Source: a virus
Direction: 5' to 3' (one strand)
IMG/VR virus record: IMGVR_UViG_3300010396_000006
Location: 1 to 64,000 of that record
Length of the DNA stretch: 64,000 nt
Part shown: positions 3,335 through 28,266 of the stretch, piece after piece
Layout of the letters: each line of letters opens with the position of its first letter
How positions within the stretch are numbered: the stretch's first letter is position 1
Program-made: the position numbers and the translations under genes
Notes under the pieces: generated by a model
Database searches by the model: none
What the model saw: the letters and a program-made list of their open reading frames with translations, nothing else
Told to the model about the DNA's origin: nothing

Positions 3335-3612
3335 TGTCGAATCCGAAAGCCATGCATGCCCAATATCGAGATCCAAAGACTGGCATTCTCGTCATCTACA
3401 CGTCAGCCGGCGTTCGAATGAATGCTCGCAATCCAAAGCGAGTCTGCGATCGTTGCGGAAAGCCGTTTGAAAAACATCATGATGGGTGGGATTCAACAGG
3501 TCTTGTTGTCACTGAGGAAGAAGTGTCTTGCATGCGTGGTGACGACATCGTGAAGTTCTATCATCCAGAATGTTTCGATCAGTTACAAAGCGAAGGTCAA
3601 TCCAATGGCTGA
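3334..3612 (+). CDS. small Zn-finger-like protein
   Basis: TGATG overlap start; CDRC...HPEC. Confidence 0.6.
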   Translation: MSNPKAMHAQYRDPKTGILVIYTSAGVRMNARNPKRVCDRCGKPFEKHHDGWDSTGLVVTEEEVSCMRGDDIVKFYHPECFDQLQSEGQSNG

Positions 3613-4693
3613 AACGACAATCGAATGGACGAATACCATTGATCAACTCGGCAATAGCCATCCGGGTTTCACGTTCAATCCGTGGTCGGGCTGTTCCAAG
3701 GTCAATGCGGGCTGTCAATTCTGCTATGCGGAGGTCAATCGATCAGTTCGAATTCGTGGTGTCACCTGGGGACCGAAAGGAAAACGAATCGTATCCAGTC
3801 CAGATTACTGGCAGAAACCATTGTCATGGAACAAGAAGGCATATCGTCTCGGCGTCAGACTGAAAGTATTTTGCGCCAGCTTGTCAGATGTGTTCGAAGA
3901 AATCGGAACAGACTTCGTGTTCGATCACAAAGGCAATCGGATTTTTCGACAGTTCGACGAGAATGCCACACTGTCGGGAAATCCATACATTGACGCGGCT
4001 GACCATTACCGAGTCGGGTTGCCAGAACTACGAAAGGATCTCTTCAACCTGATCGATATGACGCCGTATCTCGACTGGTTGATCCTGACAAAACGTCCGC
4101 AGAACATTCCGGAGATGTGGCCAAACACTCCTTATCCCGGACTTCAAGGACAATTCAGTTCGGAACCGCATCCGGTGAATAAGTATCGACCGAATGTCTG
4201 GCTAGGAACATCTATCAGCGATCAAGAAACAGCCAACGCGATGTTGCCAGAACTGTTGAAGTGTCGCGACCTGTCACCAGTGCTGTTCACGAGCTATGAG
4301 CCGGCATTGGGTCCCGTCGACTTCACGATGATCAGAGATCCGAACCGATTCCCTGGCTGTGCATACTTCGACGTCTTGCGTGGTCGAATGATCCATGAGG
4401 ACGACGGAAATCGCTGGACGAAAGAACCACATCTCGATCAAGTCATTGTCGGCGGTGAATCAGGTCCCAACGCTCGGCCGTACGAACTTGATTGGCCAAG
4501 GCAAACAATCAAGCAGTGTGCTGAATCCGGAATTGCTTGTTTCCATAAACAACTTGGATCATTCGCTTGGCGAAAATCAGATGGCGGTGGAATGAATGTT
4601 TACTTTCCAACCCGCGACAAGAAAGGCGGTGATCCTGCCGAGTGGCCGGAAGATCTGCGAGTCAGGCAATTTCCTGTTGTGTCAGCCGGATAG
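3605..4693 (+). CDS. DUF5131 (phage Gp37/Gp68) family protein, radical-SAM-like
   Basis: TTIEWT, FNPWSGCSKVNAGCQFCYAE (CX6CX2C), LILTKRP, SYEPALG, VIVGGESG, FHKQLG. Confidence 0.92.
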   Translation: MAETTIEWTNTIDQLGNSHPGFTFNPWSGCSKVNAGCQFCYAEVNRSVRIRGVTWGPKGKRIVSSPDYWQKPLSWNKKAYRLGVRLKVFCASLSDVFEEIGTDFVFDHKGNRIFRQFDENATLSGNPYIDAADHYRVGLPELRKDLFNLIDMTPYLDWLILTKRPQNIPEMWPNTPYPGLQGQFSSEPHPVNKYRPNVWLGTSISDQETANAMLPELLKCRDLSPVLFTSYEPALGPVDFTMIRDPNRFPGCAYFDVLRGRMIHEDDGNRWTKEPHLDQVIVGGESGPNARPYELDWPRQTIKQCAESGIACFHKQLGSFAWRKSDGGGMNVYFPTRDKKGGDPAEWPEDLRVRQFPVVSAG

Positions 4694-4699
4694 AGAACC

Positions 4700-4957
4700 A
4701 TGAGCGACAACGATCAATTCGAGGAAGAACTGGAACGATCAGGTCTGTTCCGTTGTTGGTGCGGAATGATTGGCCAATATGACGAGATGTTCGATATGGA
4801 AATCTTCGAACAGGATTGTGGCGGAAGCGGAGTTCTGAACTGCGAGTGCGGCGGCGATATTTGCACCTGTCATAATCATGGCGAGGTTCAGTGTCCCGGC
4901 TGTCCTGATTGCGAAGAGTTCGACGAAGACATGGACGATTATGACAGATCCTATTAA
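4700..4957 (+). CDS. Cys-rich acidic small protein
   Basis: CGGSGVLNCECGGDICTCHNHGEVQCPGCPDC. Confidence 0.7.
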   Translation: MSDNDQFEEELERSGLFRCWCGMIGQYDEMFDMEIFEQDCGGSGVLNCECGGDICTCHNHGEVQCPGCPDCEEFDEDMDDYDRSY

Positions 4958-5309
4958 AGAACTGGTGTCGAAGATCATCTGTTGCATCCGTGCGGCTCGG
5001 CTTGATCTCTCGGATGAGAAAGCGACTCAACGCGATCTCGCCGAGATGTTCACTCAGGAACGGATTTTCTTCGCCCGTGAAGTTCGCCTATCCAGAGCAG
5101 ACATTATCGACTTCATGATTCAAGGCATCGGCATCGAAGTGAAGTTGCAAGGGGCCGTCAAAACGGCGGTCCATCGTCAATTGGTTCGGTACGCAAAACA
5201 CGACAACATCAAGTGTCTGATTCTGGTCTCGAATCTCAGCATGGGATTGCCACAACAGATCGAAGGGAAAGACGTCTATTTCGTCAGCGCGGCAGAGGGC
5301 TGGTTGTGA
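4941..5309 (+). CDS. small PD-(D/E)XK nuclease-like protein
   Basis: IIDF...GIGIEVK...QLVRYA; coupled to the SNF2 helicase. Confidence 0.65.
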   Translation: MTDPIKELVSKIICCIRAARLDLSDEKATQRDLAEMFTQERIFFAREVRLSRADIIDFMIQGIGIEVKLQGAVKTAVHRQLVRYAKHDNIKCLILVSNLSMGLPQQIEGKDVYFVSAAEGWL

Positions 5310-6988
5310 GAACGTACGGCAAGATTCAACTTACTCCCGATGGAACGAAATGGGTGATCACCAAAGCGGAGCCGCACGTCTCGATCCGATTGAAAACCTT
5401 GTTCCCAAGTATTCCGAAAGGAAATGTCCCGCCATATTGGTTGCCTCACAGTCTGCCTGTTGATGCCGATCTCGATTGGTTCATGATCCGATATCCGCTG
5501 GAGATGTCAGAACAGGATCGAGCGGCACTAACCATCGGCCGCGAAAAGTACCTCGCACGCCAAGCCGAGATGGAACAGATCCTGATGCCGGATTACGTCC
5601 CCGCGAAGTCGGCAAAATTAAGGGAAGGCCAACAACTGAGGCCGTATCAATGGCAAGCAATCGAGATCCTGAAACGTCGCGGAAGCCTGTTGATCAGCGA
5701 CGAAATGGGACTCGGGAAAACTTACACGGCGGCAGGATTCATGGTCAGTCGGGCTGATTCGCTTCCCGCCGCCGTAGTCTGCGATGCTCACATGCAGCAA
5801 CAATGGAAAGAGAAGATCGAATCGTTCACGTACCTGAAAGTATGTCTGATCAAAAAGGCATCTGCCTATAGTTTGCCGGCGGCGGACGTCTACGTATTCC
5901 GAATCAGTCAGGTTGCCGGATGGTCAGAGATCTTCGATACCGGGTTTTTCCAATCGGTGACATACGATGAGCCTCAATCATTGAGGACGGGAACATCAAC
6001 CAGCAAAGGAACCGCCTGCAAGATTCTGTCCAAGAACACAAAGTATCGTTGCGGGCTGAGTGCTACGCCGGTTTTCAACTATGGCGATGAAATGTGGCGG
6101 ATTCTCCAATTCATCGACGATGCCGTTTTGGGATCATGGGATGATTTTGCGAGGGAATGGTGCTACCCAATGGGCAACGGAAAATTCCGCGTTGATAATC
6201 CAAAGGCCCTTGGGTCATACCTTCGCGAACAGCATGCGATGTTGAGGCGCACAAAAGCGGATATTGGTCAGCAATTGCCGAAAGTGTCCCGAATCGTCGA
6301 ACACGTTGACTATGACGAAAAGGCCGTTCAAGCCGTCGAGGATCTGGCTTGCATGCTGGCAGTCAAAGCGACTACAGCCAGTTTCGTTGAACGAGGGAAT
6401 GCCGTCAGGGAATTGGACGTCATGGTTAGGCAGGCAACGGGGATTTCCAAAGCGAAGACTGTTGCGACATTCAGCAGGATGATCGTCGAAGCCGGTGAAC
6501 CGATCATCCTATGGGGTTGGCATCGCGGGGTCTATGAAATCTGGAATCAAGAACTAGCCGATCTCAATCCCGCCATGTACACGGGAAGTGAATCAGCATC
6601 GCAGAAGCAAAAAGCGAAAGACAAATTTCTGAACGGTGAAACCGACGTATTGATCATGTCGCTGCGAAGCGGGGCCGGGGTTGATGGACTGCAAAAGCGA
6701 TGTTGTACTGGCATCTTCGGTGAATTGGATTGGTCCCCTGGGATTCATGCCCAATGCATCGGACGTCTCGATCGAGAAGGCCAAGAGAACCCCGTGACGG
6801 CATTCTTCCTTGTGGTCGATGATGGAAGCGATCCGCCGATCATGGATGTGTTGGGAATCAAAGCGTCAGAAGCATCCTCAATCATCGATCCGCATTTGGG
6901 CGTGGAGATGAAAGAGAACGACACCAGTCGATTGCAAAAGCTGGTTGAGCGATATTTAGATCGAAAGAAGTCAAAGTCGGTAGCGTGA
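5306..6988 (+). CDS. SNF2-family helicase/ATPase
   Basis: LRPYQ, DEMGLGKT (Walker A), YDEPQ, LSATP, GAGVDGLQ, QCIGRLDREGQ; GTG start overlaps upstream TGA. Confidence 0.9.
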   Translation: MRTYGKIQLTPDGTKWVITKAEPHVSIRLKTLFPSIPKGNVPPYWLPHSLPVDADLDWFMIRYPLEMSEQDRAALTIGREKYLARQAEMEQILMPDYVPAKSAKLREGQQLRPYQWQAIEILKRRGSLLISDEMGLGKTYTAAGFMVSRADSLPAAVVCDAHMQQQWKEKIESFTYLKVCLIKKASAYSLPAADVYVFRISQVAGWSEIFDTGFFQSVTYDEPQSLRTGTSTSKGTACKILSKNTKYRCGLSATPVFNYGDEMWRILQFIDDAVLGSWDDFAREWCYPMGNGKFRVDNPKALGSYLREQHAMLRRTKADIGQQLPKVSRIVEHVDYDEKAVQAVEDLACMLAVKATTASFVERGNAVRELDVMVRQATGISKAKTVATFSRMIVEAGEPIILWGWHRGVYEIWNQELADLNPAMYTGSESASQKQKAKDKFLNGETDVLIMSLRSGAGVDGLQKRCCTGIFGELDWSPGIHAQCIGRLDREGQENPVTAFFLVVDDGSDPPIMDVLGIKASEASSIIDPHLGVEMKENDTSRLQKLVERYLDRKKSKSVA

Positions 6989-6993
6989 AAGGG

Positions 6994-7298
6994 AAAACCA
7001 TTTGATCAATCGGACATGATGAACGGTAGACCGTTTACTGACCGAAGACCGCAACGCCGTGGGATCGAAAGTGAAATCGGTAAAAAAGTATTCGGAAGGG
7101 GCGATTGGGACGGAGCGATATTCCGATGCCGGTACAGGTATGGTGTGCGTTGCGGTGAATGTCACACGTCAGCGACGAAGCCCAGCCGGCAGCGACCGGA
7201 GCCGCACACAACGGCTTTCATGGATAGCGGTGATGCATGCAATTGCGAATCCATGACGCAGGGCTGTCCTAGCTTTGTCCGATTGATCAAGTGGTTTT
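6994..7298 (+). ncRNA. candidate ~305-nt multibranch structured RNA, family unassigned
   Basis: 23-bp terminal stem 6994-7016/7276-7298 (one G-U) enclosing at least eight nested helices, e.g. 7048-7057/7147-7156 and 7218-7225/7249-7256. Confidence 0.65.
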
Positions 7299-7326
7299 AG
7301 AAGCGAACTTTTAACAAGGTGCAATT

Positions 7327-8064
7327 ATGCTGGAACGAGTGACATTGACGGGCGCAGACAACACGGTCGAACCGAGCGAACTGCGAAAACTGAGCGAGGA
7401 TTTCCCGTTTGTCGAGTGGGGGATTCTGATCGGGACTCGCTTAAAGGCTCATCGAATGCCAGATGTTGATTGGATTCATCAACTGGTTGAAGAACGATTC
7501 CAAACGAACAACACAATGAATCTGTCGCTTCATATCTGCGGCCAACGATTGCGATCCATCGCGAATGGCCGACCTGATTTGAATGTGACAGTAGGCCATC
7601 AATTTATGGCGTTCTCTCGTGTGCAACTGAATTGGCATGCTGAACGATATGCGGCCGACGTCACTGAAAGCATGGCGGAAAACATTCTCACATCGTTCTG
7701 CCAAATGGGTGTGAGTGGATGGGAACCGGAATTGATCTTTCAGCTTGATGGGGTCAACGAAGATCTCTGCAAAGCCGTGATGCGTCGTTTTCGTTGTAGT
7801 GGATTATTTGATCGATCTCACGGTGCAGGCATTCTTCCCGGTGAATGGCCAAGATCACGGACCGATATGGCATGCGGTTGGGCCGGTGGCTTAGGTCCTG
7901 ACAATGTGGTCGAAGAGTTCCAGAAGATCCGTAAGCAGGCGTTCGGACCGTTCTGGATCGACATGGAAACCAAACTCTACAACGAAGACCGGACATTCAG
8001 CTTGGAAAAGTGCCGCAGTGTTCTGACTCAGATGAAACCATTCGTTGGATCGGACGCGGATTGA
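7327..8064 (+). CDS. phosphoribosylanthranilate isomerase-like TIM-barrel protein
   Basis: VTLTGAD, VEWGIL, LFDRSHGAG, GWAGGLGPDNV, FWIDMET. Confidence 0.75.
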   Translation: MLERVTLTGADNTVEPSELRKLSEDFPFVEWGILIGTRLKAHRMPDVDWIHQLVEERFQTNNTMNLSLHICGQRLRSIANGRPDLNVTVGHQFMAFSRVQLNWHAERYAADVTESMAENILTSFCQMGVSGWEPELIFQLDGVNEDLCKAVMRRFRCSGLFDRSHGAGILPGEWPRSRTDMACGWAGGLGPDNVVEEFQKIRKQAFGPFWIDMETKLYNEDRTFSLEKCRSVLTQMKPFVGSDAD

Positions 8065-8390
8065 TGGCCACCAGAACAATCACAATCGAAGTCGATGAAC
8101 TCGACGAAGCGACAATCCTGAATACGATTGCCAAGTATCAGGCCAAGTCACATGCGGCGGGCGGAGAAAATTGGTTGCCGGAAGGCGAATCTGACATTCG
8201 CGGCGCAACGCTGGCGGAGATCTGCCGAGCGTATCAGGAATACCACGACACTTGGAAACCGAGATTGCCGTTGAATCACGCAGTCCGGATCAAGGAAGCG
8301 ATTGAACGGAGAATCGAATCCATTCCCGGTGACGTCAATAAAGCTGACATGCGTGAAGTTCTGGAAAAGTTCATTGAGTACATGACATAA
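8064..8390 (+). CDS. hypothetical protein
   Basis: TGATG coupling. Confidence 0.65.
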   Translation: MATRTITIEVDELDEATILNTIAKYQAKSHAAGGENWLPEGESDIRGATLAEICRAYQEYHDTWKPRLPLNHAVRIKEAIERRIESIPGDVNKADMREVLEKFIEYMT

Positions 8391-28180: not shown

Positions 28181-28266
28181 GCGGATGGAAGTCGAGTGGC
28201 AGACGGTGTAGCCTCCGGTTTACCGGACTAGGCGACAAGGTGGGGGTTCGAGTCCTCTCAACCGCT
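28181..28266 (+). ncRNA. tRNA-like RNA (pseudo-tRNA) lacking a canonical anticodon loop
   Basis: Acceptor GCGGATG/CAACCGC, D-arm GTC-GAGTGGCA-GAC, T-arm GGGGG-TTCGAGT-CCTCT; anticodon region is TCCGG-TTTA-CCGGA. Confidence 0.65.

What the first reader, a model, noticed from the sequence alone, without database searches (positions are those of the whole stretch)
6994..7298. ~305-nt multibranch ncRNA candidate closed by a 23-bp stem
Seen: the gap between the SNF2 helicase and the TIM-barrel gene is almost fully pairable. Terminal stem 6994-7016/7276-7298; AACGG/CCGTT; CTGAC/GTCAG (7038/7168); perfect ACCGCAACGC/GCGTTGCGGT (7048/7147); ATCGGTA/TGCCGGT; TCGGAA/TTCCGA; and a second domain closed by AGCCC/GGGCT (7179/7261) holding CCGG/CCGG, AGCCG/CGGCT and TCATGGAT/ATCCATGA. 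The purine-rich loop segment TTGGGAC could pair with GTCCTAG (7266-7272) as a long-range pseudoknot. I could not match it to RNase P, tmRNA, 6S, group I/II introns or small ribozymes. Inference: an unclassified large structured phage RNA, possibly excised by RNase III from the early transcript.
Basis: partly seen in the sequence, partly recalled or inferred. Interest (0 to 1): 0.8.

Follow-up and report, generated by a model that had tools for sequence, protein, structure and literature searches.

The report
Long RNA stem bracketing a phage spacer
The two ends of a 338-base spacer between two genes of an uncultured soil phage form one exceptional 23-base-pair stem, most likely an RNA-cutting or silencing site, but the claimed large folded RNA inside it is no better than chance.

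Summary
The 23-bp inverted repeat 6994-7016/7276-7298 is real. It matches 22/23, and the one exception is a G-U wobble on the + strand. It is far beyond chance and is one of only two outlier stems in the 105.6-kb phage genome. However, the 259-nt interior folds no better than shuffles (z -0.64), so the whole-element z of -4.79 comes from the terminal stem alone.

Rfam gives nothing. No homologue of the DNA, the arms or the enclosed 94-codon ORF turned up in viral, metagenome or genome collections, so covariation cannot be tested.

The ORF runs exactly from the end of the left arm to the end of the right arm. It has shadow-frame-like codon statistics, no properly spaced ribosome-binding site and no relatives. 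It is also absent from the protein collection that holds both neighbouring genes.

Best reading (about 0.4): a long-range double-stranded RNA helix on the polycistronic + transcript at a mosaic junction, acting as an RNase III-type processing or insulating site. Its anatomy is closest to the RNase III-excised intervening sequences of 23S rRNA. Rivals: a real orphan gene with a 5'-3' translational lock, a single-copy tiny mobile element, a neutral inverted duplication, a structured ncRNA, an inversion switch.

Interest is low to moderate.

The parts
6994..7016 (+). Left arm of the 23-bp long-range helix. It starts 6 nt after the SNF2-family gene stop, and its last base is the A of ATG 7016.
7276..7298 (+). 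Right arm of the helix. Its last base is the T of the TAG stop of ORF 7016-7300, and it ends 28 nt before ATG 7327. G7291 pairs with U7001 as the single G-U wobble, which would be an A-C mismatch on the - strand.
7017..7275 (+). 259-nt enclosed segment. It is not detectably more structured than shuffled sequence and shares no repeated motif with the rest of the genome.
7016..7300 (+). 94-codon open frame (P0001, Cys/Arg-rich) of doubtful coding status.
   Evidence: Open frame of 90 aa or more in 2.9% of shuffled gaps. Codon and Markov scores are shadow-like. No Pfam or PHROG match. No true homologues. Not in the protein collection, although both neighbouring genes are.
6988..6993 (+). AAAGGG, the phage's usual ribosome-binding motif, directly 5' of the left arm. 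It lies 8 nt before TTG 7002 but 22 nt before ATG 7016.
7002..7019 (+). Possible 5-codon mini-frame (TTG...TGA) lying inside the left arm. Its stop overlaps ATG 7016 and ATG 7019. This is speculative.
   Evidence: Read. TTG 7002 has predicted unpaired probability 0.0.
7179..7265 (+). The only sub-domain with a weak stability signal (z -2.0).
5213..6988 (+). Upstream SNF2-family helicase gene (context). A roughly 95-99% identical relative in another soil run diverges from the window at 6977.
7327..8064 (+). Downstream 245-aa gene (context) with an AAGGTG ribosome-binding site 16 nt after the right arm. Its relatives elsewhere are not linked to an SNF2 gene.

Best explanation
The real feature is a single long-range RNA helix. 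On the + strand transcript, on which nearly all genes of this phage lie, the first 23 nt after the helicase gene pair with the last 23 nt before the leader of the next gene. This closes off a 259-nt segment. A perfect duplex of this length, two helical turns, is the classic substrate of the host's double-strand-specific RNase III.

I propose that the helix is a processing or insulating site. Cleavage in the stem would separate the helicase message from the downstream message. It would also excise or silence the enclosed segment, whose 94-codon frame is probably not a working gene. Where the helix is not cut, it buries the start region of that frame.

Shown here: the helix exists, is far beyond chance, is wobble-compatible only on the + strand, and is predicted to form with probability about 1. 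Also shown: the interior is not specially structured, and the element sits at a mosaic junction.

Inferred, not shown: that both arms are on one transcript, that RNase III or any nuclease cuts there, and what the consequence is for neighbouring genes.
For: The 23-bp stem matches 22/23, against 0 expected by chance. In a genome-wide scan allowing G-U pairs it is one of only two outliers. The other is 20088-20119/20199-20230: 32 bp with 5 G-U on +, but only 20 bp on -. That stem is therefore clearly an RNA-level helix, and it lies in the leader just before a ribosome-binding site. So this phage does use long leader helices.

The single non-Watson-Crick position here is U7001-G7291, a wobble on + and an A-C mismatch on -. 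The duplex energy is -35 kcal/mol, and pair probabilities are 0.73-1.0 in a 900-nt context. The right arm ends 16 nt before the ribosome-binding site of gene 7327, the same layout as the 20088 element.

The enclosed ORF looks non-coding. Its Markov score is -0.043 per codon: none of 209 in-frame windows scores that low, while 14% of shadow ORFs score that high. There is no ribosome-binding site at normal spacing. It has no homologues among 1.84 billion representatives except summed TPR-repeat noise. It was not found in the protein collection with any start tested, although both neighbours are there.

There is a precedent with the same anatomy. The Coxiella 23S intervening sequence is 428-444 nt, has a 28-bp terminal stem with one mismatch, carries an ORF with a poor Shine-Dalgarno site in the loop, and is excised by RNase III (PMC4990558). 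RNase III also cuts the duplexes that flank 16S and 23S rRNA (PMC8708148).
Against: No transcript data exist; no RNA run was listed. No homologue exists, so there is no covariation, and the strand argument rests on one wobble (roughly a 3:1 likelihood). An open frame of 90 codons or more on the + strand occurs in only 2.9% of shuffled gaps, and it fits the gap neatly. That favours a real gene. A frame bounded exactly by inverted repeats is also the classic anatomy of an insertion sequence. The host and its RNase III specificity are unknown, and the phage encodes no RNase III of its own.
Confidence: 0.4

Rival explanations
1. ORF 7016-7300 is a real orphan accessory gene encoding a small Cys-rich protein. 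The helix is its translational lock: the 5' arm covers positions -22 to +1 of the start region and the 3' arm is the last eight codons. Initiation would then need the stem to be opened. That could happen through ribosomes terminating on the helicase gene 6 nt upstream, through the 5-codon TTG mini-frame, or through ribosomes reaching the 3' end of the ORF. This is comparable to long-distance pairing in RNA phages and to the T7 gene 1.1/1.2 case, both recalled from general knowledge.
For: An open frame of this size is seen in only 2.9% of shuffled gaps. It is on the same strand as its neighbours and fills the gap, 28 nt after one gene and 26 nt before the next. The wobble G7291 is the third base of a Lys codon and so is synonymous. 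An AAAGGG motif plus TTG 7002 sits just upstream, with the mini-frame's stop overlapping the ATG. The slot between these modules holds small accessory genes in relatives.
Against: Coding statistics lie about 3 sd below the phage's genes. There is no ribosome-binding site at 5-13 nt. No homologue was found anywhere. AlphaFold confidence is pLDDT 41. The Atlas recognition score is 1172, well under the 2300 that most real families reach. The sequence is absent from the protein collection, although neighbours of 245 and 108 aa are present.
Confidence: 0.2
2. The 305-bp unit is a tiny mobile element bounded by terminal inverted repeats, or its remnant. It would resemble a MITE or the 439-bp mycobacteriophage MPME elements, inserted at a module junction. 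The RNA helix would then be a by-product, as with Neisseria Correia elements, whose repeats become RNase III hairpins.
For: The 23-bp terminal inverted repeats bound a frame that starts just inside the left repeat and stops in the right repeat, which is typical insertion-sequence anatomy. It lies in an intergenic slot at a mosaic junction. Its codon usage is foreign to the phage. Precedents are MPME (PMC3029335) and CREE (PMC2649163).
Against: It is single-copy in the genome. The arms were not found in viral contigs. Only single-arm, chance-level hits turned up in metagenomes (3) and in 185,579 species genomes (6). There is no target-site duplication at the ends. The genome encodes no transposase, recombinase or reverse transcriptase. 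The 94-aa product has no relatives. The close relative in run X2 diverges 17 nt before the arm, not at it.
Confidence: 0.13
3. The repeat is a neutral by-product: a young inverted duplication created by template switching or illegitimate recombination when two modules were joined. It has no function of its own.
For: It sits exactly at a junction. Relatives share the upstream pair (orf4878 plus SNF2) or the downstream gene, but never both. A 95-99% identical relative diverges at 6977. There is no conservation anywhere and no repeated motif.
Against: The 22/23 match with a wobble-compatible change, the exact bracketing of the whole spacer, and a second, clearly RNA-selected long stem in the same genome all argue for selection.
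Confidence: 0.1
4. One reading: a roughly 305-nt multibranch structured non-coding RNA of a new class, closed by the stem.
For: The closing stem is real. Automated gene calling apparently treats the gap as non-coding. Sub-domain 7179-7265 has z -2.0 and hairpin 7020-7037 has z -3.05.
Against: The interior has z -0.64 and -0.34. Rfam gives nothing at E<=10. There are no homologues, hence no covariation. The centroid keeps few of the proposed helices.
Confidence: 0.08
5. A DNA inversion switch (inverton), or a pair of inverted protein-binding sites that loop the DNA.
For: Inverted repeats of about 20-30 bp flanking a few hundred bp in an intergenic region are the typical inverton layout (general knowledge).
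Against: There is no serine or tyrosine recombinase in the complete genome. No sigma-70-like promoter lies inside. The source-run contig shows one orientation only and no joints (contigs only). No further copy of the arm exists in the genome to serve as an operator.
Confidence: 0.05

Closest known systems
Intervening sequences (IVS) of bacterial 23S rRNA, e.g. Coxiella burnetii (PMC4990558)
   Same: A few-hundred-nt segment (428-444 nt there, 305 nt here) closed by near-perfect terminal inverted repeats: a 28-bp stem with one mismatch there, a 23-bp stem with one wobble here. The loop carries an ORF with a poor ribosome-binding site that is probably not translated. The IVS is excised by RNase III cutting in the stem.
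   Different: The IVS sits in helix 25 or 45 of 23S rRNA, and its ORF belongs to the S23p family. This element lies between two protein genes of a phage. Its ORF matches no Pfam family, and cleavage is untested.
RNase III processing sites in phage polycistronic mRNAs (T7 early region, lambda N leader) and the stems flanking 16S/23S rRNA (PMC8708148; the T7 and lambda details are from general knowledge)
   Same: Intergenic double-stranded RNA of about two helical turns on a polycistronic transcript, just ahead of the next gene's leader.
   Different: T7 sites are local hairpins of about 60 nt with an internal loop. Here the arms are 259 nt apart and fully paired, more like the rRNA stalks. There is no sequence similarity.
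Correia repeat-enclosed elements and other MITEs (PMC2649163, PMC10969869)
   Same: Inverted repeats of about 23-26 bp enclosing a short core in intergenic regions. When transcribed they form RNase III hairpins that change the expression of adjacent genes.
   Different: CREE occur in 100 or more copies with TA target sites. This element is single-copy, has no target duplication, and has no relatives in any collection searched.
Mycobacteriophage mobile elements MPME1/2 (PMC3029335)
   Same: An ultra-small element (439 bp there) in a phage genome with inverted repeats and one small ORF.
   Different: MPMEs are found at different sites in near-identical phages. No second copy or empty site was found here, and there is no protein similarity.

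Membership tests
Any Rfam family (RNase P, tmRNA, 6S, introns, ribozymes, large phage RNAs) | Covariance-model match | tested here: not met
   No match at E<=10 in 6500-7800. No gathering-level match in the whole window.
Structured non-coding RNA (generic) | Fold more stable than shuffles, beyond the closing stem | tested here: not met
   Interior z -0.64 on + and -0.34 on -. Sub-domains z -0.36 and -2.0.
Structured non-coding RNA (generic) | Covariation among homologues | not testable with these tools
   No homologue was found in phage records, viral contigs, metagenomes or genomes.
RNase III substrate | About 20 bp or more of uninterrupted double-stranded RNA | tested here: met
   23 bp with no mismatch on + and one G-U, -35 kcal/mol, pair probability about 1.
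RNase III substrate | Both arms on one transcript, and cleavage by the enzyme | not testable with these tools
   No RNA run was listed. The host is unknown.
23S rRNA intervening sequence | Located in a 23S rRNA gene, with an S23p-family ORF | tested here: not met
   No rRNA in the window. P0001 has no Pfam family.
MITE / MPME-like mobile element | Terminal inverted repeats | tested here: met
MITE / MPME-like mobile element | Several copies, or a presence/absence polymorphism | tested here: not met
   Single copy. Arm scans gave only chance single-arm hits. The relative in X2 diverges at 6977, not at the arm.
MITE / MPME-like mobile element | Target-site duplication | tested here: not met
   The flanks ...AAAGGG and AGAAGC... 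are not direct repeats.
Inverton | Recombinase available, and both orientations present | tested here: inconclusive
   No resolvase or tyrosine recombinase in the genome. Only contigs could be laid, and they show one orientation.
Retron non-coding RNA | a1/a2 repeats next to a reverse transcriptase gene | tested here: not met
   No RVT_1 match in the genome.
Protein-coding gene (ORF 7016-7300) | Coding statistics, ribosome-binding site, homologues | tested here: not met
   Only the openness of the frame (p about 0.03) speaks for it.

The most novel reading that the evidence does not exclude
The 305-bp unit could be a new, exceptionally small mobile cassette bounded by terminal inverted repeats. 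It would carry a 94-aa Cys-rich protein of no known family, smaller than the mycobacteriophage MPMEs. Its ends would double as an RNase III hairpin in the phage transcript. Alternatively, the enclosed RNA could be a new stem-closed non-coding RNA released by RNase III.
Probability: 0.12. Interest if true: 0.6.

Novelty: new member of a known kind. Interest (0 to 1): 0.27.

Why it matters
If the helix is cut, this shows an uncultured soil phage using rRNA-stalk-like long-range duplexes to punctuate its polycistronic messages. A second such helix lies at 20088. This would extend a mechanism known from T7 and lambda. It would also give a handle on transcript architecture in a phage group with no cultured member.

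The practical lesson for the scan is methodological. A long closing stem inflates a whole-element folding z-score, so interiors must be tested separately.

Tried and rejected
Searches that found nothing:
- Rfam at permissive threshold: nothing.
- blastn of 6500-7800 against 50,697 phage records: no match.
- Arm and two-arm patterns in viral contigs: 0 hits.
- Arm 19-mer in metagenomes: 3 single-arm hits with no flanking similarity.
- Arm 19-mer in species genomes: 6 single-arm hits, about the number expected by chance. The best, L014 at 26/27, lies inside a 512-aa ORF of a Planctomycetaceae MAG and is neither a CRISPR spacer nor a repeat.
- Relatives found through the flanking genes (L004-L008) carry neither the element nor an analogous long stem.
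- No reverse transcriptase, RNase III, rve or Y1 transposase, resolvase or tyrosine recombinase in the phage.
- No sigma-70-like promoter or intrinsic terminator in the gap.
- No motif of the gap recurs in the genome above chance.

Protein-level tests of P0001:
- Word-index search: none.
- Full HMMER scan: six hits, all TPR-repeat proteins. They matched through a 'GDWDGAI' motif summed over repeats, with single stretches of only 27-31 bits. I rejected these as noise.
- PHROGs: none.
- AlphaFold single sequence: pLDDT 41, uninformative.
- Protein atlas: best score 0.83, low recognition.

Sequencing runs:
- No RNA holder was listed.
- Only Logan contigs could be laid. The probable source run shows the window's form. 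The second soil run has no cover of 6977-8228.

Full report
**Context.** The window is the first 64 kb of a complete 105,647-bp virus record with direct terminal repeats. It was assembled from a soil metagenome. Genes are densely packed, with crude coding density 0.91, and lie almost all on the + strand. The finding lies between a 591-aa SNF2-family helicase gene (5213-6988; Pfam SNF2-rel_dom 3e-21, PHROG 62) and a 245-aa gene of no known family (7327-8064).

**The observation.** The closing stem is real. Positions 6994-7016 and 7276-7298 are 23 nt and 96% complementary. A search for the arm with up to 3 mismatches finds only these two places, against 0.00 expected.

The whole 305 nt folds at -121.2 kcal/mol with z -4.79. 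That signal is the terminal stem alone. The interior 7017-7275 gives z -0.64, with 54 of 200 shuffles as good, and its reverse complement gives z -0.34. The first domain, 7038-7172, which includes the perfect 10-bp helix, has z -0.36. The second, 7179-7265, has z -2.0. A 7-bp hairpin just after the ATG has z -3.05. After multiple testing these are marginal. So 'almost fully pairable' is what any 259-nt sequence of this composition yields.

**How exceptional is the stem?** I scanned the whole genome for helices of at least 17 bp spanning up to 700 nt, allowing G-U pairs and one mismatch, on both strands. There is a background of about 60 G-U-rich helices per strand and only two outliers.
- One is this stem: 23 bp, no mismatch, one G-U on +; on the - strand the same position is an A-C mismatch.
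- The other is 20088-20119/20199-20230: 32 bp with five G-U on +, but only 20 bp on -. That one is plainly an RNA-level helix. It lies in a leader, ending 2 nt before an AAAGGG ribosome-binding site and ATG 20245.

In a 900-nt context the 6994/7276 pairs have probabilities of 0.73-1.0. The isolated duplex is worth -35 kcal/mol.

**Is the enclosed frame a gene?** ORF 7016-7300 (94 aa, P0001) starts at the last base of the left arm, and its stop begins at the last base of the right arm.

For coding:
- A + strand frame of at least 90 codons appears in only 2.9% of dinucleotide shuffles of the gap.
- It fills the gap on the right strand.
- The wobble G7291 is a synonymous third position.

Against coding:
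- The codon log-odds is 0.016 per codon, against 0.273 +/- 0.104 for in-frame windows.
- The 3-periodic Markov score is -0.043. None of 209 in-frame windows scores that low, while 14% of shadow ORFs score that high.
- The phage's ribosome-binding motif is AAAGG(G), 7-9 nt before the start. The only such motif (6988-6993) is 22 nt from ATG 7016. It is 8 nt from a TTG that opens a 5-codon mini-frame whose stop overlaps the ATG.
- There is no Pfam or PHROG match.
- No homologue shares words in 5.8 billion clusters.
- A full HMMER pass over 1.84 billion representatives returns only TPR-repeat proteins, matched through one short motif summed over repeats.
- AlphaFold gives pLDDT 41, and Atlas recognition is low.
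- The exact products of both neighbouring genes (245 aa and 108 aa) are in the 15-billion-protein collection from this very contig. No frame in the gap is, with any start or strand I tried.

I put the chance that this is a working gene at about one in four.

**Relatives.** The nearest SNF2 relative (L007, 72-73% aa) and L008 (44%) share the upstream pair orf4878 plus SNF2, but different small genes follow. Relatives of the downstream gene (L004-L006, 36-53%) have other genes abutting it and no SNF2.

A second soil run holds a 95-99% identical relative of the SNF2 gene. Its contig departs from the window at 6977, three codons before the stop and 17 nt before the left arm. Nothing from that run covers 6977-8228.

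The element therefore sits at a mosaic junction. It has no detectable homologue anywhere: phage records, viral contigs, metagenomes, species genomes. Covariation, the decisive test for any RNA model, cannot be run.

**DNA-level alternatives.** The complete genome has no resolvase, tyrosine recombinase, rve or Y1 transposase, or reverse transcriptase. The ends show no target-site duplication. There is no second copy of the element or the arm, and no promoter-like site inside. The contig from the probable source run shows a single orientation and no joints (contigs only). These results weaken the MITE/MPME, inverton and retron readings but do not exclude a single-copy remnant.

**Mechanism.** A perfect 23-bp duplex is about two helical turns. 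That is the substrate of RNase III, which is known to cut duplexes formed by distant sequences flanking 16S and 23S rRNA (PMC8708148).

The closest anatomical match I found is the 23S rRNA intervening sequence of Coxiella. [quoted passage not shown] It carries an ORF with a poor Shine-Dalgarno site in the loop. It is excised by RNase III, which removes that site, and the protein is probably not made (PMC4990558). Correia elements show that inverted repeats of this size, once transcribed, become RNase III sites that alter neighbouring gene expression (PMC2649163).

I therefore commit, at about 0.4, to a long-range double-stranded RNA processing or insulating site. It would lie on the + transcript between the helicase message and the next message, and the enclosed frame would be a passenger. 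The translational-lock version, with a real orphan gene, gets about 0.2.

**Verdict.** The stem is real and non-random. The multibranch RNA is not supported. Nothing here lies far from known kinds of element, and the lack of any relative leaves the function inferred only. Interest is low to moderate.

Noticed in passing
window 20088-20119 / 20199-20230: A 32-bp long-range stem with five G-U pairs on the + strand and only 20 bp on the - strand. It encloses 79 nt and ends 2 nt before AAAGGG and ATG 20245. A TTGACA lies at about 20027. It is the only other outlier stem in the genome and clearly an RNA-level leader helix.
   Followed up: partly
window, upstream of most + strand starts (e.g. 2258, 8402, 11625, 13714, 18933): The phage's ribosome-binding motif is AAAGG(G/T), 7-9 nt before the start. 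AAGG and AGGG are about 4-fold enriched upstream of starts.
   Followed up: partly
window 28188-28266: ARAGORN calls a 79-nt tRNA-Gly with anticodon ACC here.
   Followed up: no
window 6977 (run X2): Another soil metagenome from a different study holds a 95-99% identical relative of the SNF2 gene. Its sequence leaves the window's at 6977 and encodes a different 6-residue tail and stop. This marks a recombination junction just before the element.
   Followed up: partly
window 7002-7019: A five-codon frame, TTG ATC AAT CGG ACA TGA, lies inside the left arm, 8 nt after AAAGGG. Its stop overlaps ATG 7016 and ATG 7019, which is a termination-reinitiation layout. It may be chance.
   Followed up: no
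L011:2067-2085: One chance metagenome hit of the arm directly follows the 3' end (…CCGCACCA) of a tRNA-like sequence. There is no further similarity to the element.
   Followed up: no
window 3605-4693 and 4878-5309: A DUF5131 protein (Pfam 1.5e-48) and a PHROG 5928 protein precede the helicase. The orf4878-SNF2 pair is conserved in L007 and L008.
   Followed up: no
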